A stretch of DNA of 30,347 nt from a virus, in UHGV virus genome UHGV-1790783. One strand, written 5' to 3'. The position numbers were made by a program, and so were the translations under genes. Shown in pieces: positions 1 to 6,696 of the stretch. The notes under the pieces are model-generated. The model saw only the letters and a list, made by a program, of their open reading frames with translations. It was not told the DNA's origin and did no database searches. How positions within the stretch are numbered: position 1 is the stretch's first letter; each line of letters begins with the position of its first letter.

Positions 1-284
1 GATGTTAATCCTTATGTAATATTGATAACTTAATTTGTTATTTATTTATCGTTAGCGCGTTCGCTTTCGATGTAATTAATTATCGACATACAGAAAATAA
101 AATCAAGAGTTTTTTTGCTCGGGAATGAAAAATTTTATTCAATAAAAATCAAAGTCTTAGAAATAAAATGCATTTTCTCGAAGGTGTTGCCTAAATAAAT
201 TCCCTATTCGGTCAATCACCCTTATATATTTAAACTGGAATCGTGGTGGGTGAAATAAATATAACTGGAAGTGACACGTAAAAT

Positions 285-308
285 AATAACCGGACTTAGC
301 CGGTTATT
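285..308 (-). terminator. Putative intrinsic terminator ending the minus-strand operon
   Basis: Seen in sequence: perfect 9-bp inverted repeat AATAACCGG / CCGGTTATT with 6-nt loop; on the minus-strand transcript the stem is followed by AUUUUA. Lies about 15 nt downstream of the stop of the 321..629 gene. Confidence 0.55.
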
Positions 309-320
309 ACCCTTATAGAT

Positions 321-629
321 TTATTGAGCAGACTCGACAATTTTTCGGTTAGTGTCAAAGAGTGCATCGACGAAGTGTGCCGATGACTCGCTGGCATCAC
401 ACTCCAACATCTCCCTTTGGTCAGCCGAACGCCCCTTACAGTTTTGGACACTCTCTCCAATTGTCTTTCCCGCTTTGACAGCGGCTGCGAACTGGTACAT
501 GCAAATCGACACATTGTCCGATGACGAACAGACGTCGTTCATGAGTGACTGAATAACTGGTTTATAGTCCATAGCTGAGGCTGCCGTGGACGATGCGAGA
601 AGAATTGAGGATAGTAAAATCGCTTTCAT
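321..629 (-). CDS. Small secreted (periplasmic) protein with predicted Sec signal peptide, unknown function
   Basis: ORF track 102 aa. N-terminus MKAILLSSILLASSTAASA has a basic n-region, hydrophobic core and AxA cleavage motif; mature part has 4 Cys. No obvious SD; ATG sits 3 nt after the upstream gene's stop (possible coupling). Function inferred only from signal peptide. Confidence 0.5.
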   Translation of the reverse strand: MKAILLSSILLASSTAASAMDYKPVIQSLMNDVCSSSDNVSICMYQFAAAVKAGKTIGESVQNCKGRSADQREMLECDASESSAHFVDALFDTNRKIVESAQ

Positions 630-632
630 AAC

Positions 633-1196
633 TTAAAACGGTAAAATTCGTTCAACCCAATCGAACATGACGACCATCTTCCGACCATCGCCAACGCTGA
701 GTGTGACCTGACAAGCGTCAACGCCTGAAGACACACCTTCAAGTTCACGGCCATCCGCCATGTAGACCCTTATAGACTTCTGCATCTCATGAGCCTGGCG
801 ACAAATTTTGAAGAAATCACGGCGAGATGGCTGATTGTCCACATAGTCTGGGTGTACCGTTGTCCGACCCGTGAAGTCGTGCGCAATACCTTCTGTCACA
901 CCTGATTCAATCGTGCTGATTCTCTCAAGTGGGAGCCTTATACGATTTTCTTTGTCGAACGGGGCAGGGCAAAGGTCGACTTTGTTGCGCGACGACATGA
1001 GACCCTGAACGTACATGCAGAACACCTGACCATCTTCCATCGTGACCCTTACAGGAATGAGAGACTTACGCCAGAACATCAGCGCCTTCTCCACGTTGGT
1101 GTAATCGCGCGGCCAGACTTCTGCAGGAATCCCGTAGGTGATGTCAGTAATATTCGTCATATCGTCACAGTGTCGTTGGTAGGATATCGATGTCAC
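633..1196 (-). CDS. Hypothetical protein with internal duplication (two related halves each ending in an ERI motif)
   Basis: ORF track 187 aa. Half 1 VRVTMEDGQ...RIRLPLERI and half 2 IRVYMADGR...VMFDWVERI are visibly related. Start uncertain: the longest ORF overlaps the upstream lipoprotein gene by 32 nt; an in-frame ATG at 1160 would remove the overlap. No family recognised. Confidence 0.5.
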   Translation of the reverse strand: MTSISYQRHCDDMTNITDITYGIPAEVWPRDYTNVEKALMFWRKSLIPVRVTMEDGQVFCMYVQGLMSSRNKVDLCPAPFDKENRIRLPLERISTIESGVTEGIAHDFTGRTTVHPDYVDNQPSRRDFFKICRQAHEMQKSIRVYMADGRELEGVSSGVDACQVTLSVGDGRKMVVMFDWVERILPF

Positions 1197-1587
1197 CTGC
1201 GTTGCTGGTGAACACCCGGAAGACTTTCGTCTCGCCAGCTTTGGTGATGGTCTCGCGTTCCTGACGAGCGGGGTTCAGTGCGCACAGTCCGGCGCCTTCC
1301 AGTGAGGCGCCAACAATCCATTGCCCGGCATCCAGATGGAACGTCGCTTTTTCACCGGTCTCCAGCTTTGCAACCGTCTCACCATTGATGAAGATGGACG
1401 CGTCACAGCCTGCACCTATCATACCTTTGTCCCTCATAACCACCAGCGTGGTTGGTGCAGACGTCTGGTATTTGAAAACTCTGGCCTGCGGCGCCGGTTT
1501 TGCATCGGCTACAGACACAGGGCGGGATGAACATGCACTCAGGAGTAAAACGGGGATGGTAATCAGTGGAAGTAGAACGTGTTTCAT
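1165..1587 (-). CDS. Outer-membrane lipoprotein (candidate superinfection-exclusion / receptor-masking protein)
   Basis: ORF track 140 aa. N-terminus MKHVLLPLITIPVLLLSAC-SS has a classic lipobox (LSAC) with Ser at +2 (no Asp inner-membrane retention signal). Function is inference by analogy to phage Cor/Llp-type lipoproteins; it is longer than those. Confidence 0.65.
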   Translation of the reverse strand: MKHVLLPLITIPVLLLSACSSRPVSVADAKPAPQARVFKYQTSAPTTLVVMRDKGMIGAGCDASIFINGETVAKLETGEKATFHLDAGQWIVGASLEGAGLCALNPARQERETITKAGETKVFRVFTSNAGDIDILPTTL

Positions 1588-1622
1588 GGCTTGAACTAAA
1601 TTCTTATCACTTCAACGAACAA

Positions 1623-1638
1623 GGCGTCTTGAGACGCC
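1623..1638 (-). terminator. Stem-loop between the 92-aa gene and the lipoprotein gene; possible weak terminator/attenuator
   Basis: Seen in sequence: GGCGTC-TTGA-GACGCC (6-bp stem); on the minus transcript it is followed by UUGUUCGUU. T-tract is weak. Confidence 0.3.
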
Positions 1639-1646
1639 CTTAATGC

Positions 1647-1925
1647 TTAATCGAGACGTTTGAGGATATCGGCCAGATCTTCTTTGGTCATACCCGAGTT
1701 TTCGTAAATCTTCATGACCTTTTCACGAGCCTTTGCAGTAGTCTCTAATGACGTAGCTATCTTATCAAAATCACCCATCGTCATATTGGACAGCACCAGA
1801 TTGATGATGTCTGCCTTTGACAGTTTTATGCTGCGTTCACGCAGTCGATTCTGAAAGGTCTCTAGTTTATCGTTTGCTTTTTCGGTTAACTGAACCTGGC
1901 AGTGTATAGCGCGTTTCTCGCTCAT
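1647..1925 (-). CDS. Small hypothetical protein, possibly ribbon-helix-helix-like DNA binding
   Basis: ORF track 92 aa. ATG lies 2 nt after the helicase stop (TAAGCATG), suggesting coupling. The N-terminal KRAIHCQVQLTEKANDKLETFQNRL pattern (beta-strand then helix) is RHH-like; weak inference. Confidence 0.45.
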   Translation of the reverse strand: MSEKRAIHCQVQLTEKANDKLETFQNRLRERSIKLSKADIINLVLSNMTMGDFDKIATSLETTAKAREKVMKIYENSGMTKEDLADILKRLD

Positions 1926-1927
1926 GC

Positions 1928-3487
1928 TTACTCTCTATTTAAAACAGTGAAATCGAATGTGCTGCCAACCGGCAAGACCCCCTCGGCAAACCCAGGCGTC
2001 GTGTCGATAATGTGTTTCCGCTCATATGAATGCGACATGAGGTATTTGTTGCTCACGTCGATGAAGTCGGTAATAAAGCACACGTTAGCCTGATTCTTTT
2101 TGGCTCGAAGACCGCGGCCCACACGTTGACGCATCTCCACTTCGGCTTTGCCGCCACCACCCAGAATCACAGCGCCTACGCTTGGAACGTCGACACCAAC
2201 ATCCAGAATGGTTGAACCAATGAGAACATCTATCTTGCCTACCGCCAGACTATTAAGTTTTGCTTGTCGGGTAGTCTGGTTTGATTCTCCGTAGATGAAA
2301 TCGACCTTGAGGCCACTCTCTTTCATCATTTCCATCAAGATCTGACCATGACGCTTCAGACGAACCAATGTCATACAGTTCAGACCGTGACTTTTGTACA
2401 TTAACGCTTCGCGCACAATAGCCTCGTTGCGGCCCAGATTGTAAACGATGCCTAACTGATAGGCTTTCTGGTAAGCCGTACTCATTCCAACCCGAAAGTT
2501 CAGGTGTTTCGAAGCAAGTTCGGCCCTAATCCGCACCTCGTCTGGAGTGTACGCGATTTTATGATATAGAAAGTAGGGTTTCGCTAAAATACCTCGGTCG
2601 ATCAAATATTTCTCCGTTACTTTTATCTCGATGCGACCCGCAACGGCCATGAGACGCATATTTGCTTCAGTCGAGTCCTTCATGAACGGCGTTGCTGTCA
2701 GCGCCAGACGGTAGTCGGCATTGATGCACAACCGGGCGATGTCGTAGAAGTTAGAACCAGATGATTCGTGTGCCTCTTCCAGAATCAGCAGAGAAACGCT
2801 GGACAGGAAGCGTTTAACCAGTTCCCGGCGCTTCAGGTGGTACTGTTTTTTCTCCGGTGATGCGTCGCGCGGTGGCTCTTCGAGAAAACTGGCCAGGGTC
2901 TGCACCGTGGCAACGTTGATATGGCGCGAGACCTGGAACTCACCCGATCCAATCACCCCAACTCTCTGACCTTTCAGCCACGGCTCGCCATTCTCCGCGC
3001 GGTAGTCGATGGATTTCTGGAAGTTCTCTGCCATCTGGAACATCAGAACCGATCGCGTGGTTAAAAACAGCGTCATACGACCAATGCGAGCAGCAGCCTT
3101 ACACGCTACGTTCGATTTACCGCCACCCGTCGCAATCTGGGCAATCATCATCCCTTCGCGCACCAGTGTTTCCACTGTCTGATCCTGATACGCATAGTCC
3201 GGGTTATACGGGAATGGGTTAACTACCGGGTTCGGCTTGCCCAGCGCGGGGGCTTTTTCCTTGCGCACATGCACGCATTTGATGCCAGCTTTCAGAAGGT
3301 TGGCTGCAACTGGCTTCGCAAACCCAGCCGGGAACGCGTTTTTGCTCCAGTTGAACATCGTGCTGGTTCCTTTCCAGTCCCCAGCCTCCACTTCATAGCT
3401 CAACATCTCCTGAACGAGCCGCTTCACGTTGTCATCAGCGCCAGAAATCAGCGCATTGACTGCATTCGATACAATCCGAACTGTCAT
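1928..3487 (-). CDS. Superfamily-2 DNA/RNA helicase (DEAH-type, ResIII-like phage replication helicase)
   Basis: ORF track 519 aa. Motif I ATGGGKS, motif II LILEEAH, motif III LALTATP, C-terminal motif VI QRVGRGLR. Strong SD (AAGGAAAGAGG) upstream of the ATG at 3487. Confidence 0.9.
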   Translation of the reverse strand: MTVRIVSNAVNALISGADDNVKRLVQEMLSYEVEAGDWKGTSTMFNWSKNAFPAGFAKPVAANLLKAGIKCVHVRKEKAPALGKPNPVVNPFPYNPDYAYQDQTVETLVREGMMIAQIATGGGKSNVACKAAARIGRMTLFLTTRSVLMFQMAENFQKSIDYRAENGEPWLKGQRVGVIGSGEFQVSRHINVATVQTLASFLEEPPRDASPEKKQYHLKRRELVKRFLSSVSLLILEEAHESSGSNFYDIARLCINADYRLALTATPFMKDSTEANMRLMAVAGRIEIKVTEKYLIDRGILAKPYFLYHKIAYTPDEVRIRAELASKHLNFRVGMSTAYQKAYQLGIVYNLGRNEAIVREALMYKSHGLNCMTLVRLKRHGQILMEMMKESGLKVDFIYGESNQTTRQAKLNSLAVGKIDVLIGSTILDVGVDVPSVGAVILGGGGKAEVEMRQRVGRGLRAKKNQANVCFITDFIDVSNKYLMSHSYERKHIIDTTPGFAEGVLPVGSTFDFTVLNRE

Positions 3488-3569: not shown

Positions 3570-4250
3570 ATGGATGTGAAAATTACGATTCTGCAGGTGG
3601 AAGTCGCGAACCTGCGTCCGAATCCCTGGAATACCAACTCCGTTGGGGCGCAAAACTTCGAAAAACTGAAAGGCTCTATCGAAAAATTGGGCTTTTTTAA
3701 GCCAATTCTGGCGCGGGAGTTGGACGGGGGCATTTTTGAGATCCTCGGTGGTGAACACCGCTGGCGTGCCGCGATGGAGCAGGGCATTTCAACGGTTCCC
3801 GTCATCTCCGTGGGCAAAATTAACGACCTGGTGGCCAAACAGATGTCCCTCGTCGACAACGAGCGCTACGGCGAAGACGATCAGGTCGCTTTGCAGCGCT
3901 TAATCGAAGAAATCCAGTCTGAAATCGACTACCGGTTGTCCGATATCGCCCCGTATGACGACGAAATGGCGGCAACACTCGCCAAAGCGTCCGTTATCGA
4001 TCTTGAAGCGCTGGAAGCGCTCTCCCGTGGCGATGACGAGCCGGTCGATGAGGACAAACGCGAGAAAACCGAGCGAGTCGGCGCTGAACACCAGACGATG
4101 CGCTTCAAGGTGACGTTTGATGCGTCAGATCGGGTCGCCGACACCATCAAAACCATCATCAAAGAGCAGGGAATCAATACCGGTAACGAAATGGAGAACG
4201 CCGGGGAAGCCCTGGTGTGGCTGGTCGACTACTACAAGGAGCGTATGTAA
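3570..4250 (+). CDS. ParB/sulfiredoxin-like nuclease-domain protein (paralogue 1)
   Basis: ORF track 226 aa. ParB N-terminal motif ILGGEHRWRAA preceded by LRPNPWN. Stop overlaps the next start (TAATG). Confidence 0.8.
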   Translation: MDVKITILQVEVANLRPNPWNTNSVGAQNFEKLKGSIEKLGFFKPILARELDGGIFEILGGEHRWRAAMEQGISTVPVISVGKINDLVAKQMSLVDNERYGEDDQVALQRLIEEIQSEIDYRLSDIAPYDDEMAATLAKASVIDLEALEALSRGDDEPVDEDKREKTERVGAEHQTMRFKVTFDASDRVADTIKTIIKEQGINTGNEMENAGEALVWLVDYYKERM

Positions 4251-4918
4251 TGACCAAAAACTTTGAAATCGTCTATCGAAACCCGGCAGAACTCATCCCG
4301 TATGAGATGAACGCCAAAAAACATGACGAACAGCAGATCCGCGATCTGGCGGCCGCCATCAAAAAGCGCGGTTTTGACCAGCCGATCACGGTCGACAAGC
4401 ACGACGTCATCATTACTGGCCACGGTCGTCGCGAGGCGGCTCTTCTGGCTGGTCTGGAGCGTGTGCCGGTCATTGTTCGCGACGATCTGAGCGAAGAAGA
4501 AGTGAAGGCTAAGCGTCTGGAAGACAACCGCCTGGCCAGTATTGACTACGACGCCATCAAATTGCAGCAGGAACTGGAATCCCTGGTGCTGGGCGACGTC
4601 GAGGTCTTCGGTTTTGAAGAGCGCGAGCTGAACGTGCTTGTCGGCAGCATGACCGAAGAGATGGAAACCGGCTCTCTGGTGCTCGATCTGGGCGAAGAGA
4701 CGGAGCGCCAGAAGGAAGAGCACACCGAGATCAGTCGCGAAGTGGCCTCTGAAGAAGTCCGCGTCATCGACGTATTGGGCTTTAAAACGCTCCCTGCTGG
4801 CTCTGCCATTGTGGTTGGGGATTTGCTTGCCCACATGGAAGAAATCACGGGAGAGAGCGGGGTAGACGCTTTCGTGGCGTATGCGGAGAAAGTTTCTTCT
4901 GGGGAGCTGGCCGCATGA
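4250..4918 (+). CDS. ParB/sulfiredoxin-like nuclease-domain protein (paralogue 2) with acidic C-terminal half
   Basis: In-frame ATG at 4250 inside track ORF 4217..4918. ParB-type motif IITGHGRREAA. Stop overlaps the next gene's ATG (ATGA). Confidence 0.8.
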   Translation: MTKNFEIVYRNPAELIPYEMNAKKHDEQQIRDLAAAIKKRGFDQPITVDKHDVIITGHGRREAALLAGLERVPVIVRDDLSEEEVKAKRLEDNRLASIDYDAIKLQQELESLVLGDVEVFGFEERELNVLVGSMTEEMETGSLVLDLGEETERQKEEHTEISREVASEEVRVIDVLGFKTLPAGSAIVVGDLLAHMEEITGESGVDAFVAYAEKVSSGELAA

Positions 4919-5553
4919 GCAAATACACCATCAACGTATCGTTTCAGACCCGCGTGAACAAAACCACGCGCACGCTGGAGATTGCCGAATCGTTCGGTCT
5001 TGGCCTGGACGAAAAAGAGTGGACGCTTTACGACAATCTGGAGCTGGAAGTGAAGCAGGGCGATGTGGTGTACATCACCGGCCAATCCGGTTCCGGTAAA
5101 TCCGTTGTGCTGCGCGAGCTGCAACGCCAGATGAAGGATGAAGGGCTTTCTGTAGCCTCCATCGATGACTTTGCCTTCGACAATGAGGTTAACGTCATTG
5201 ACCAGCTGGGCAAAACCACCAGCGAAGCGCTGGGGCTGCTGTCTATGGCCGGATTGAATGACGCCTATCTCTTTGTGCGTAAGCCATCCGAGATGTCTGA
5301 CGGCCAGAAATACCGTCTCAAGATCGCCAAGCTGATCGAGTCCGGCGCGAAAGTCTGGGCTGCCGACGAATTTGGCGCTGTTCTCGACCGTGTAACCGCC
5401 CAGGTTGTGGCGTCGAACCTCCAGCGTGCCGCCCGTAAGGTTGGTGCGACGGTAATGGTGGCGACGACCCACGAAGACCTGAAGAACGCGCTGCGCCCGG
5501 ATATGCAGATCACCAAGCACTACAAAGAACGCGTGAAGGTGGAATATGCCTGA
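4915..5553 (+). CDS. Stand-alone ABC-type ATPase (single nucleotide-binding domain)
   Basis: ORF track 212 aa. Walker A GQSGSGKS, Q-loop-like IDQLG, ABC signature-like SDGQKYR, Walker B VWAADEFG, H-loop-like ATTHED. No transmembrane partner in the operon. Confidence 0.75.
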   Translation: MSKYTINVSFQTRVNKTTRTLEIAESFGLGLDEKEWTLYDNLELEVKQGDVVYITGQSGSGKSVVLRELQRQMKDEGLSVASIDDFAFDNEVNVIDQLGKTTSEALGLLSMAGLNDAYLFVRKPSEMSDGQKYRLKIAKLIESGAKVWAADEFGAVLDRVTAQVVASNLQRAARKVGATVMVATTHEDLKNALRPDMQITKHYKERVKVEYA

Positions 5554-5800
5554 TTTGAAGATCGTAGAGCTGAAGCCATCGAAAGAGACTGACAACAACA
5601 ACGTTGAAGTCATCCGCCTGCTGGAAGAAGCACTCCAGTACGCAAGAGAAGGCAAAAGTCAGAGCCTGGCTCTGCTGATGATCGACAACGACGGCAATGT
5701 TATGGATTGCTGGCATAACGGTGGGCGTCCATACGTCATGGTTGGGGCGATGGAATCGCTTCGCCTGGACTTCATCAATGCCAATATCGAGCGTAGGTGA
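5546..5800 (+). CDS. Small hypothetical protein (84 aa)
   Basis: ORF track 84 aa, ATG overlaps the ATPase stop by 8 nt; no recognisable motif. Supported mainly by operon context. Confidence 0.45.
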   Translation: MPDLKIVELKPSKETDNNNVEVIRLLEEALQYAREGKSQSLALLMIDNDGNVMDCWHNGGRPYVMVGAMESLRLDFINANIERR

Positions 5801-5805
5801 TCGAC

Positions 5806-6696
5806 ATGACAGGCATCATCATCAAACGCTACCGCCCGGAAGAGTTCCCGCGTCATCTGGACTTTCTGGAGCGTATGACCGTTACCAAAGGCACGGTTGA
5901 AGACTGGCACGCGCTGAAGTCGCTGCACTACAAGACGGATGGTAAGCCGTTCGCGCCAACGTATTATCGCTGCGAACTGGACGACCGGCTGGTGGGCGTC
6001 GTGGTTATGGCTTACCCGAAACTGCTGCTGGCGCCTCGCCATCGCATGTTTCCTAAGCTGAAGCCAACCACCAATACCACCGTGGCCAACCAGTATTGGG
6101 GCCGGTACGTGAACAACAACTTTGCCGTGATCAGCCGTTCCGTTGTTGACACTCAGTACCGCGGTGTCGGCGTCTCCTATCGAATGATTAACCTGGTTAG
6201 CAGGATGCACGACCGGCCAATCATCGAGATCCAGTCGTCGATGAGCAAATACAACCCGTTCGCCATGAAAGCAGGGTTCCAGTTCATCCGTCCGGAGCGT
6301 CCGAAGAGCTATGAGAGTGCGTTGCGCGTCTTCCAGCGTCATTTCCGTTCTGACCCTGGCGACAACGAAGCGATCGTCAAAGAGCTGTTCGCCATGAGTG
6401 AGTCTCGCCGTCGTCGTGCGCTGCGTGATCTGGTCGCTGACTACCACAAGAACAGTTCCCTGGCCAAAGCCGGGCGTAATCGTGGCACGACGATTCAGGA
6501 CATTGCCGACAGCCTGGTGGACGAGGCCAGCACCGTGAAGCTGCTCAAGGACATTCACAACCTGAGCTTCACGTCTCCGCTGTATGGCGTGTACCGAAAC
6601 CCGGACTTTGGTCGTCAGCTGCCGGACACGCTGCCACTGCTGGCATTCGACAAACAGCCTTTGAATAAACCTCTTGAAATTGCATTACCGGCATAA
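5806..6696 (+). CDS. GNAT-like acyltransferase-fold protein with ~130-aa C-terminal extension
   Basis: ATG at 5806 (AGGTGA SD 8 nt upstream) within track ORF 5797..6696. Segment FAVISRSVVDTQYRGVGVSYRMINLV matches GNAT motif A (R/Q-x-x-G-x-G/A after a hydrophobic strand). Motif-level inference only. Confidence 0.55.
   Translation: MTGIIIKRYRPEEFPRHLDFLERMTVTKGTVEDWHALKSLHYKTDGKPFAPTYYRCELDDRLVGVVVMAYPKLLLAPRHRMFPKLKPTTNTTVANQYWGRYVNNNFAVISRSVVDTQYRGVGVSYRMINLVSRMHDRPIIEIQSSMSKYNPFAMKAGFQFIRPERPKSYESALRVFQRHFRSDPGDNEAIVKELFAMSESRRRRALRDLVADYHKNSSLAKAGRNRGTTIQDIADSLVDEASTVKLLKDIHNLSFTSPLYGVYRNPDFGRQLPDTLPLLAFDKQPLNKPLEIALPA

What the first reader, a model, noticed from the sequence alone, without database searches (positions are those of the whole stretch)
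1165..1587. Phage-encoded outer-membrane lipoprotein, candidate superinfection-exclusion factor
A clear lipobox (LLSAC followed by SS) predicts an outer-membrane lipoprotein, encoded in an operon with the helicase rather than with lysis genes. No partner inner-membrane spanin is adjacent and at 140 aa it is larger than typical o-spanins. Phage lipoproteins of the Cor/Llp type that inactivate the phage's own receptor are the closest established functional class, so this gene may protect the host from related phages.
Basis: partly seen in the sequence, partly recalled or inferred. Interest (0 to 1): 0.55.

Follow-up and report, generated by a model that had tools for sequence, protein, structure and literature searches.

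The report
Mobile-element outer-membrane lipoprotein, function untested
This is a real gene for a small outer-membrane lipoprotein that is found only on phages, phage-plasmids and other mobile elements, usually as an add-on gene inside phage tail operons; it is neither a lysis protein nor a relative of the known receptor-blocking lipoproteins, and a role in keeping other phages out is plausible but untested.

Summary
The ORF is real: window 1165-1587, minus strand, 140 aa, lipobox L-S-A-C with Cys19 and Ser at +2. dN/dS is 0.09-0.14, and the lipobox is kept in 232 of 243 relatives.

The window is an SSU5/pHCM2-type phage-plasmid. Its relatives carry their own spanins, and SSU5 carries its own Cor, so this gene is neither.

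It belongs to PHROG 890, an uncharacterised family distantly related to DUF2846. The predicted fold is a transthyretin-like beta-sandwich with an invariant Cys pair.

The main new result is context. In every other setting examined, the homolog sits on a mobile element. Most often it lies in lambda-like prophage tail operons between gpK and gpI, always 24-73 nt upstream of gpI. It is usually followed by an intrinsic terminator, has lower GC than its neighbours, and often sits beside exclusion or defence cargo such as SieB and AbiU2. This is the classic moron layout.

That context supports an envelope function such as superinfection exclusion. It does not support Cor/Llp-style masking of the phage's own receptor: there is no homology, lipoprotein identity does not track the J receptor-binding end, and SSU5's receptor is LPS core.

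Function remains untested. Interest is moderate.

The parts
1165..1587 (-). Lipoprotein gene (140 aa precursor, about 121 aa mature). PHROG 890; distant DUF2846-like beta-sandwich.
1531..1587 (-). Signal peptide plus lipobox (aa 1-19, L-S-A-C). The lipid-modified Cys19 codon is at 1533-1531. The next residues are Ser-Ser, which predicts outer-membrane sorting.
   Evidence: Cys19 is invariant in 51 aligned relatives
1177..1452 (-). Predicted eight-strand transthyretin-like beta-sandwich (aa 46-137). Invariant residues are R52, D53, C61, C102 and R124. C61 and C102 probably form a periplasmic disulfide (inferred).
1614..1640 (-). 8-bp GC hairpin (AAGGGCGUC-UCAA-GACGCCUU region) followed by UUGUUCGUU, lying between the 92-aa gene and the lipoprotein gene. 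It is a possible partial terminator that separates the cassette from the helicase operon.
   Evidence: whole 71-nt stretch -17.2 kcal/mol, z -1.7; not called by the simple terminator scan
633..1160 (-). FljA-like gene (Pfam Flag1_repress, repressor of phase-1 flagellin). Its ATG lies 4 nt after the lipoprotein stop, so it belongs to the same unit.
   Evidence: it follows the lipoprotein gene in all 35 SSU5-like loci
321..629 (-). 102-aa Cys-rich protein with a cleavable signal peptide (phrog_9536). Its ATG lies 3 nt after the FljA-like stop. It is present in only part of the SSU5-like elements.
280..313 (-). Strong intrinsic terminator (14-bp stem followed by a U-run) that ends the lipoprotein / FljA-like / 102-aa cassette.
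   Evidence: -15.3 kcal/mol, z -3.6
1647..3487 (-). Upstream co-directional genes: DEAD/DEAH helicase (1928-3487) and a 92-aa protein (1647-1925, phrog_1466). They are context, not part of the lipoprotein's function.
22844..24249 (+). The element's own gpK-like (22844-23668) and gpI-like (23656-24249) tail-tip genes. They overlap with nothing inserted between them. This is the junction where homologs of the lipoprotein sit in lambda-like prophages.

Best explanation
The gene encodes a small lipoprotein. It is exported, lipid-modified at Cys19 and sorted to the inner leaflet of the outer membrane. There it presents a compact, disulfide-stabilised transthyretin-like beta-sandwich to the periplasm.

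It is an accessory, moron-type gene of a family that travels almost only on mobile elements. These are lambda-like prophages (at the gpK/gpI junction of the tail operon), SSU5-like phage-plasmids (in a cassette with a FljA-like regulator), P4-like islands and decayed integrase islets.

The most likely job is to alter or guard the cell envelope of the carrier cell so that incoming phages, probably siphoviruses with lambda-type tail tips, fail at or just after adsorption. That is superinfection exclusion. It would act on a conserved envelope or tail-tip component, not by masking the particular receptor read by the phage's own J C-terminus.

Shown: the gene, the lipobox, the fold prediction, restriction to mobile elements, the moron layout, and that it is neither a spanin nor Cor.

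Inferred: outer-membrane localisation, the disulfide, expression in the carrier state, and the exclusion function itself.
For: (1) Lipoprotein signal and family-wide conservation.

(2) Real gene under purifying selection: dN/dS 0.09-0.14.

(3) Every context examined is a mobile element. That is 35 SSU5-like loci, 57 loci with K-(cargo)-lipoprotein-I, 5 next to the tape-measure gene, 2 P4-like islands and 2 integrase/PIN7 islets.

(4) In prophages the gene is always 24-73 nt upstream of gpI. The gap to gpK ranges from 17 nt to 5.7 kb.

(5) A canonical intrinsic terminator follows the gene in 28 of 44 distinct loci. Its GC is 45.7%, against 57.0% for gpK and 49.2% for gpI. This is the moron signature as defined in PMC3594210. 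HK97 gp15, a tail-operon moron, is a proven exclusion protein (same paper).

(6) Cargo inserted beside it includes SieB (PF14163, 5e-29), HEPN_AbiU2, an LPS kinase, a TonB_C protein, MazEF, PIN7 and NA37 pairs.

(7) Among about 50,000 phage records, homologs occur in only 22, all apparently temperate or prophage-derived: SSU5-likes, mEp390, HK639, CharmingMan, Fostie and phiAH14a/b.

(8) Alleles are swapped. The helicase is 92-100% identical while the lipoprotein is 58-100% identical. dS is 0.58 between two elements whose helicases are identical. Klebsiella SSU5-likes carry a 29%-identical allele close to where the window's flanking DNA aligns in those records.

(9) Hosts include soil, plant and Antarctic Pseudomonas, Rhodanobacter, Pantoea and Rahnella. 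That argues for a phage- or envelope-level role over an animal-virulence role.
Against: - No experiment on any family member was found in the literature held.
- There is no homology to any known exclusion or defence protein. PADLOC gives none, and PHROGs and Pfam give only 'lipoprotein' and a sub-threshold DUF2846 match.
- No convincing sigma-70 promoter lies upstream of the gene in prophage loci: 3% against 2% in control windows at 9 of 12 matches. None was found in the window either. Expression in the lysogen or plasmid state is therefore unproven.
- One Klebsiella lineage lacks the terminator.
- In the window the gene is not near the tail genes, and its GC (54.8%) is not lower than that of the element (50.9%).
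- Sitting in a cargo hot spot is association, not proof of function.
Confidence: 0.4

Rival explanations
1. It is an envelope-fitness factor for the carrier cell that has nothing to do with phages. Examples would be protection against bacteriocins, tailocins, type VI attack, lysozyme-like enzymes, serum or envelope stress, in the way lambda Bor or plasmid TraT help their hosts.
For: It has the moron layout and is restricted to mobile elements. It is retained in decayed integrase islets where no phage remains, which suggests benefit to the host. In the window it is co-operonic with a FljA-like regulator and a secreted protein, which looks like a lysogenic-conversion cassette. The fold resembles periplasmic binding lipoproteins such as TssJ.
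Against: There is no similarity to Bor, Iss or TraT. Its occurrence in soil and Antarctic bacteria argues against serum or virulence roles as the general function. The neighbouring cargo with a recognisable function is mostly anti-phage: SieB and AbiU2.
Confidence: 0.28
2. It works like Cor or Llp. The lipoprotein would bind and inactivate the outer-membrane receptor used by the phage's own tail tip. That would exclude related phages and keep progeny from being wasted on cell debris.
For: It is an outer-membrane lipoprotein encoded by temperate siphoviruses. In prophages it lies two genes upstream of the receptor-binding J gene. High model confidence from residue 21 onwards suggests a short tether that would hold the domain against the periplasmic face of outer-membrane proteins.
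Against: There is no homology to Cor, and SSU5 has its own Cor. Lipoprotein identity follows gpI, gpK and the J N-terminus (rho 0.51-0.65) but not the last 250 aa of J (rho 0.21). L058 and L060 have identical lipoproteins with 58%-identical J ends, and L068 and L080 are 94% against 37%. SSU5 binds LPS core. In the window the gene is 21 kb from the tail-tip genes.
Confidence: 0.12
3. It is an o-spanin or another lysis component that pairs with a distant i-spanin.
For: It is an outer-membrane lipoprotein on a phage genome.
Against: SSU5 has Rz (phrog_1026, 5e-23) and Rz1 (phrog_1275, 2.5e-19) in a holin-endolysin-spanin cassette. pHCM2 and pToe3-1 have genes of matching size in the same place. 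Kongari et al. list the SSU5 spanin. This protein is 140 aa with a globular beta-sandwich, not a short proline-rich peptide. It also occurs in islands that have no lysis genes.
Confidence: 0.02
4. It is a structural or assembly component of the tail tip, since it lies between gpK and gpI.
For: There is strict positional linkage to gpI in 57 loci, with co-orientation in the late operon.
Against: About 95% of members have a signal peptide and lipobox, so the protein leaves the cytoplasm where tails assemble. The window's own element and SSU5 have gpK and gpI overlapping with nothing between them. A terminator follows the gene. It also occurs outside tail operons.
Confidence: 0.02

Closest known systems
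HK97 gp15 (moron-encoded superinfection exclusion protein; Cumby et al. 2012, reviewed in PMC3594210)
   Same: Both are an extra gene inserted in a lambda-like tail operon and bounded by a terminator. Both encode an envelope protein. gp15 blocks DNA entry without touching the receptor and depends on the incoming phage's tail. Five homologs of the lipoprotein sit beside the tape-measure gene, close to where gp15 lies (between the chaperone and tape-measure genes).
   Different: gp15 is a small inner-membrane protein of the YebO family, whereas this is an outer-membrane lipoprotein with a beta-sandwich. There is no sequence relation. Exclusion has been shown for gp15 but not here.
Cor (phi80, N15, T1, SSU5_025; phrog_1119) and Llp (T5)
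   Same: All are phage-encoded outer-membrane lipoproteins of siphoviruses that are encoded near tail genes. Cor and Llp exclude phages by inactivating FhuA.
   Different: There is no detectable similarity. This protein is 140 aa, while Cor is 77 aa. The predicted fold is different. SSU5 carries both genes. There is no covariation with the receptor-binding end of J.
Pfam DUF2846 (PF11008), uncharacterised bacterial lipoprotein-like domain
   Same: The pattern of strands is the same and the size is similar. The window protein matches at E=0.02, and 18 of 51 relatives match at E<=0.1, the best at 2.5e-6.
   Different: The match is below Pfam's threshold (15.4 bits against 34.3). DUF2846 has no known function, so the relation gives no mechanism.
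TssJ (type VI secretion outer-membrane lipoprotein) and other transthyretin-like sandwiches
   Different: The resemblance is of a generic fold only, at 9-12% identity. There is no T6SS context.
Lambda Bor / Iss and plasmid TraT (mobile-element lipoproteins that help the host)
   Same: They are outer-membrane lipoproteins expressed from a resident prophage or plasmid.
   Different: There is no sequence similarity. Serum resistance is unlikely to be the general role, given the environmental hosts.

Membership tests
Bacterial lipoprotein (Lgt/LspA/Lnt substrate) | An N-terminal signal peptide ending in a lipobox [LVI][ASTVI][GAS]C, with a positive n-region and a hydrophobic core | tested here: met
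   MKHVLLPLITIPVLLLSAC with Cys19. The PROSITE-style rule is passed by the window protein and by 232 of 243 relatives. Cys19 is invariant.
Bacterial lipoprotein (Lgt/LspA/Lnt substrate) | Outer-membrane sorting: no Asp at +2 (E. coli Lol rule) | tested here: met
   Residue +2 is Ser. None of the 232 relatives has Asp at +2. This is rule-based only.
Bacterial lipoprotein (Lgt/LspA/Lnt substrate) | Actual lipidation and membrane localisation | not testable with these tools
   This needs globomycin or palmitate labelling and membrane fractionation.
o-spanin (Rz1-type) | Encoded within, overlapping or next to an i-spanin gene in a lysis cassette | tested here: not met
   The neighbours are a helicase, a 92-aa protein and a FljA-like protein. 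The spanins of SSU5, pHCM2 and pToe3-1 lie after the tail-fibre genes.
o-spanin (Rz1-type) | Short, proline-rich mature peptide; match to spanin profiles | tested here: not met
   The mature protein is 121 aa and globular. There is no spanin PHROG or Pfam hit.
Cor superinfection exclusion protein (phrog_1119) | Sequence homology to Cor | tested here: not met
   BLASTP against SSU5_025 gives no alignment at E<=100. PHROG scan gives only phrog_890.
Cor superinfection exclusion protein (phrog_1119) | Inactivates FhuA or the phage's receptor | not testable with these tools
   The indirect test was negative: there is no covariation with the J C-terminus.
Llp (T5 lipoprotein) | A lipoprotein of about 60 aa encoded next to the receptor-binding protein gene; homology to Llp | tested here: not met
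   There is no PHROG or Pfam hit other than phrog_890 and DUF2846. The precursor is 140 aa. In the window the gene is 21 kb from the tail-tip genes.
Moron (Juhala/Hendrix definition, PMC3594210) | An extra gene relative to related genomes at the same position | tested here: met
   gpK and gpI overlap in the window and in SSU5. In 57 prophage loci the lipoprotein gene is inserted between them.
Moron (Juhala/Hendrix definition, PMC3594210) | Own terminator | tested here: met
   28 of 44 distinct prophage loci have a canonical hairpin plus T-run between the lipoprotein gene and gpI. In the window the three-gene cassette ends in a strong terminator at 280-313.
Moron (Juhala/Hendrix definition, PMC3594210) | Own promoter | tested here: inconclusive
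   A simple sigma-70 scan finds no enrichment of good matches upstream: 3% against 2% at 9 of 12 matches. None was found in the window.
Moron (Juhala/Hendrix definition, PMC3594210) | GC content differs from neighbours | tested here: met
   In prophage loci the values are 45.7% (lipoprotein), 57.0% (gpK) and 49.2% (gpI). In the window the difference is small and in the opposite direction: 54.8% against 50.9%.
Moron (Juhala/Hendrix definition, PMC3594210) | Expressed from the repressed prophage or plasmid state | not testable with these tools
   This needs RNA-seq or a reporter in a lysogen.
Pfam DUF2846 (PF11008) | Score at or above the gathering threshold (34.3 bits) | tested here: not met
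   The score is 15.4 bits, E=0.02. 18 of 51 relatives match at E<=0.1, and one carries a precomputed PF11008 hit. It is a distant relative, not a member by Pfam's rule.
PHROG 890 ('lipoprotein') | Profile match over the full length | tested here: met
   E=1.9e-55, residues 10-140 on profile positions 7-136 of 136.
Known anti-phage defence systems (PADLOC-DB 2.0) | Match to any defence protein model | tested here: not met
   No hit at E<=1.

The most novel reading that the evidence does not exclude
The family is a new, widespread class of exclusion proteins: outer-membrane lipoproteins that ride at the gpK/gpI junction of lambda-type tail modules and have been relocated in SSU5-like phage-plasmids. 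They would stop incoming siphoviruses after receptor binding. They would do this by engaging a conserved part of the tail-tip or ejection machinery (tape measure, gpI, the gpK peptidase or the J N-terminus) or a conserved periplasmic partner. That would explain why they co-vary with gpI, gpK and the J N-terminus but not with the receptor-binding end of J.
Probability: 0.2. Interest if true: 0.7.

Novelty: new variant of a known kind. Interest (0 to 1): 0.45.

Why it matters
If the family does exclude phages, it adds a common and so far unrecognised lipoprotein class to the short list of envelope-level exclusion factors (Cor, Llp, gp15, SieA). It is common: more than 1200 clusters at 50% identity, across Enterobacterales, Pseudomonas and Xanthomonadales.

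It would also matter for phage therapy and phage typing of strains that carry SSU5/pHCM2-type plasmids, which include Salmonella Typhi, E. coli, Enterobacter and Y. pestis pMT1.

Its fixed position directly upstream of gpI gives a simple genomic marker for finding cargo hot spots in lambda-like tail operons.

If it is not an exclusion factor, it is still a conserved, mobile-element-borne envelope protein with no known function, and it can be tested with one plasmid construct.

Tried and rejected
- Sequence search of solved structures gave only chance hits, best E=0.1.
- BFVD's best hit was DUF4352 at 2e-4, which is also uninformative.
- The afdb50 library was not available.
- NCBIfam and PADLOC gave no hits.
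- The genome-contig scan failed with the 51-sequence alignment because no stretch was conserved enough. It was repeated with a 12-sequence alignment.
- A promoter search upstream of the prophage homologs showed no enrichment of good sigma-70 matches.
- I followed a lead that the Y. pestis virulence gene ypmt1.66c ('putative DNA-binding protein', PMC3968184) might be the FljA-like neighbour. I rejected it: the lipoprotein cassette is not in pMT1 40-80 kb, where that gene would lie.
- Literature searches found nothing on function. The terms were DUF2846, mEp390, pHCM2 plus lipoprotein, accession numbers, and fljA plus phage-plasmid.
- The S. Typhi IVIAT antigens on pHCM2 (HCM2.0043, HCM2.0069c) could not be mapped to this gene.
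- The spanin and virion-component readings were considered and rejected (see rivals).
Full report
**What is in the window**

The finding's coordinates hold a single ORF on the minus strand, 1587 down to 1165, 140 aa. Its N-terminus is MKHVLLPLITIPVLLLSAC|SS. That gives one Lys, a 13-residue hydrophobic core, the lipobox L-S-A-C with Cys19 (nt 1533-1531), and Ser at +2.

**What the element is**

The window is an SSU5/pHCM2-type phage-plasmid.
- The first 4 kb are 97% identical to pHCM2 of S. Typhi CT18 and to many Salmonella and Citrobacter plasmids, and 94% identical to phage SSU5.
- Positions 321-1925 are 100% identical to E. coli plasmid pToe3-1.
- SSU5 annotates the gene as 'lipoprotein' (SSU5_122). 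RefSeq calls it 'hypothetical protein' in pHCM2 and pToe3-1.

**Is it a real gene?**

Yes.
- PHROG 890 ('lipoprotein') matches at 1.9e-55.
- A word-indexed search finds close copies almost only on contigs of about 100-120 kb from Salmonella, Citrobacter, Enterobacter, E. coli, Cronobacter and Buttiauxella.
- A profile search reaches 35-60% identical proteins of about 140 aa in Pseudomonas, Pantoea, Yersinia, Rahnella, Klebsiella, Rhodanobacter and Stenotrophomonas.
- An exhaustive profile search finds 1222 clusters at 50% identity with E<=1e-3 and 486 with E<=1e-10, nearly all 130-150 aa.
- Between alleles dN/dS is 0.09-0.14.
- In 51 aligned relatives the invariant residues are C19, R52, D53, C61, C102 and R124.
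- A PROSITE-style lipobox rule is met by 232 of 243 full-length relatives, and none has Asp at +2.

**Fold**

AlphaFold2 on the 51-sequence alignment gives pLDDT 87.5 and pTM 0.80. The model is an eight-strand beta-sandwich (aa 46-137). Residues 21-45 are also modelled with high confidence, so the tether to the lipid anchor is short.

No solved structure is close.
- Foldseek against PDB gives nothing below E=1e-3.

Pfam gives only a sub-threshold DUF2846 match (15.4 bits against 34.3). 18 of 51 relatives match that model weakly. DUF2846 has no known function. The invariant C61/C102 pair is most simply read as a periplasmic disulfide; this is an inference.

**Local gene arrangement**

On the minus strand the order is as follows.
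- Helicase (1928-3487).
- A 92-aa protein (1647-1925).
- A 59-nt gap with an 8-bp GC hairpin followed by UUGUUCGUU.
- The lipoprotein gene.
- 4 nt, then a FljA-like protein (Pfam Flag1_repress, 4e-96; ATG at 1160).
- 3 nt, then a 102-aa secreted Cys-rich protein (321-629).
- A strong terminator (280-313, z -3.6).

The gene is therefore better described as the first gene of a three-gene cassette bounded by hairpins than as a simple member of the helicase operon. Read-through from the helicase cannot be excluded. All 35 SSU5-like loci examined keep helicase, 92-aa gene, lipoprotein and FljA-like gene in that order. The 102-aa gene is present in only some of them.

**Not a spanin, not Cor**

SSU5 has the following genes directly after its tail-fibre genes: a Cor homolog (SSU5_025, phrog_1119, 1.8e-29), a holin, an endolysin, Rz (phrog_1026) and Rz1 (phrog_1275). 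pHCM2 and pToe3-1 have genes of holin, endolysin and Rz size in the same place, a few kb beyond the end of this window. Kongari et al. 2018 list SSU5 among phages with a two-component spanin. BLASTP of the lipoprotein against SSU5 Cor finds no alignment. PADLOC and NCBIfam give nothing.

**The main new result: where the family lives**

I looked up the genomic context of the distant homologs. In every case the gene is on a mobile element. The loci came from look-ups of individual proteins, a scan of one genome per species (13 loci) and a scan of IMG/VR (80 loci).
- 35 loci are SSU5-like.
- 57 loci are lambda-like prophage tail operons with the order gpM, gpL, gpK, (0 to 5.7 kb of cargo), lipoprotein, gpI, gpJ.
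- 5 loci have the gene beside the tape-measure gene.
- The Rhodanobacter and Stenotrophomonas copies sit at the cargo end of integrase/primase or integrase/AlpA (P4-like) islands.
- The Phytobacter copy, and the closest relatives that are not on a phage-plasmid (67% identity), sit in integrase-associated islets with PIN7, MazEF and NA37-family genes.

In the prophages the gene is always 24-73 nt upstream of gpI, while its distance from gpK varies from 17 nt to 5.7 kb. In 28 of 44 distinct loci a canonical intrinsic terminator lies between the lipoprotein gene and gpI. The exceptions are L017, the truncated L020 copy, and one Klebsiella lineage with a 24-26 nt gap. Mean GC is 45.7% for the lipoprotein gene, 57.0% for gpK and 49.2% for gpI.

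An extra gene, a terminator of its own and deviant GC together make the moron layout (PMC3594210). The promoter part is not established, because a simple sigma-70 scan shows no enrichment of good matches.

Cargo inserted between gpK and the lipoprotein gene includes the following.
- HEPN_AbiU2.
- SieB (PF14163, 5e-29).
- A Kdo/WaaP-family LPS kinase.
- A TonB C-terminal domain protein.
- Antirepressors.
- An insertion sequence.
- NA37 pairs.

Isolated phages with a homolog are temperate or prophage-derived. They include SSU5-likes, mEp390 (gp17, between the gpK and gpI homologs; its annotators already noted similarity to a Y. pestis pMT1 lipoprotein), HK639 (after the tape-measure gene), CharmingMan, Fostie and Pseudomonas phiAH14a/b.

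The window's own tail-tip genes are 33-43% identical to those flanking the lipoprotein in prophages. Here gpK and gpI overlap with nothing between them.

**A test of the Cor/Llp reading**

If the lipoprotein masked the receptor read by the phage's own tail tip, its sequence should follow the receptor-binding C-terminus of J. It does not. I compared 19 distinct loci that have complete J genes.

| Compared with | Spearman rho with lipoprotein identity |
|---|---|
| gpI | 0.65 |
| First 700 aa of J | 0.58 |
| gpK | 0.51 |
| Last 250 aa of J | 0.21 |

L058 and L060 have identical lipoproteins, gpK, gpI and J N-termini, but their J C-termini are 58% identical. L068 and L080 have 94% identical lipoproteins and J C-termini only 37% identical.

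This is a small sample confounded by shared ancestry, so it weakens the receptor-matching idea without disproving it. Separately, SSU5's known receptor is LPS core oligosaccharide, bound by tail fibre gp22. A periplasm-facing lipoprotein cannot mask that directly.

**Evolution within the phage-plasmids**

The helicase is 92-100% identical across SSU5-like loci, while the lipoprotein ranges from 58% to 100%. Two elements with identical helicases differ at dS 0.58 in the lipoprotein gene. That means whole alleles are exchanged; it is not faster change in place. Klebsiella SSU5-likes carry a 29%-identical allele close to where the window's flanking DNA aligns in those records.

**Interpretation**

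What is shown: a conserved, exported, lipid-anchored beta-sandwich protein, restricted to mobile elements and placed as an add-on gene in positions that also collect exclusion and abortive-infection genes.

What is inferred: it acts on the envelope of the carrier cell, most likely against incoming phages. I put this at about 0.4.

The closest functional precedent for the architecture is HK97 gp15, a tail-operon moron that blocks DNA entry in a way that depends on the incoming phage's tail. The closest precedents for the protein type are Cor and Llp, but membership in those families was tested and not met.

A host-fitness role unrelated to phages is the main rival, at about 0.28. Examples are protection against bacteriocins, tailocins, T6SS or envelope stress. 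The wide environmental host range argues against a virulence or serum role as the general function.

Spanin and virion-component readings are rejected.

**Novelty and score**

That this gene encodes a lipoprotein is already in the SSU5 annotation. I did not find the following described in the library searched:
- the family's restriction to mobile elements;
- its fixed place upstream of gpI, with a terminator;
- its link between lambda-like prophages and SSU5-like phage-plasmids.

If it excludes phages, it is a new family of a known kind of system. No experiment exists, the fold is generic and no promoter was found, so interest is moderate (0.45).

Noticed in passing
window 633-1160 (minus strand): A full-length FljA-like protein (Pfam Flag1_repress, 4e-96; phrog_1444) is translationally coupled to the lipoprotein gene and follows it in all SSU5-like loci examined. 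A phage-plasmid copy of the repressor of phase-1 flagellin could silence host flagellin, affecting motility, immune recognition or flagellotropic phages. None of the phage-plasmid papers retrieved mentions fljA.
   Followed up: partly
window 321-629 (minus strand): A 102-aa protein with a cleavable signal peptide (MKAILLSSILLASSTAASA|MD) and several Cys residues (phrog_9536, function unknown) is the last gene of the cassette. It is present in only part of the SSU5-like elements.
   Followed up: partly
L081 6904-7329, L082 2332-2757, L090 4529-4954 (IMG/VR prophage loci): A 141-aa ORF with a TonB C-terminal domain in L081 (PF03544, 5.6e-15), with same-length ORFs at the same offset in L082 and L090, lies directly after gpK in the cargo region upstream of the lipoprotein gene. 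A phage-encoded TonB_C fragment could interfere with TonB-dependent receptors used by phages and colicins.
   Followed up: no
L095 7366-7914; L003 4210-4980; L088 6827-7747; L107 7684-10081; L013 9446-11814: The gpK/gpI junction of lambda-like prophages is a cargo hot spot. It holds SieB (5e-29), HEPN_AbiU2 and a Kdo/WaaP-family LPS kinase. A recurring pair, an NA37 (YejK-like) protein plus a protein of about 400 aa, also appears next to the lipoprotein gene in a Phytobacter island.
   Followed up: partly
L020 8143-8403 (K. pneumoniae ATCC 13883 chromosome): The lipoprotein gene at the K/I junction looks truncated or pseudogenised here: only an 86-aa ORF remains and 72 aa align.
   Followed up: no
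window 3570-6696 (plus strand): Divergent from the helicase are two ParB-like nuclease-domain genes, an ABC-type ATPase-like gene, a small gene and a 299-aa gene. The cluster is conserved in SSU5 and pHCM2. Its function was not examined.
   Followed up: no
window 321-1925 vs NZ_CP069087.1 97959-99563: The cassette is 100% identical to E. coli TOE3 plasmid pToe3-1 (131 kb, human faeces, Myanmar). In that plasmid no Cor gene is annotated between the tail-fibre assembly gene and the holin-size gene, unlike SSU5.
   Followed up: partly
Klebsiella SSU5-like records, e.g. MZ779062.1 32465-32833 and CP058330.1 91789-92157: Klebsiella SSU5-like phage-plasmids carry a lipoprotein allele only 28-29% identical to the window's. 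In pJN2-26 and vB_Kpn_1825-KPC53 it lies near where the window's flanking DNA aligns (pJN2-26: about 1 kb beyond the last aligned base, window nt 318). This points to allele replacement at a fixed site.
   Followed up: partly
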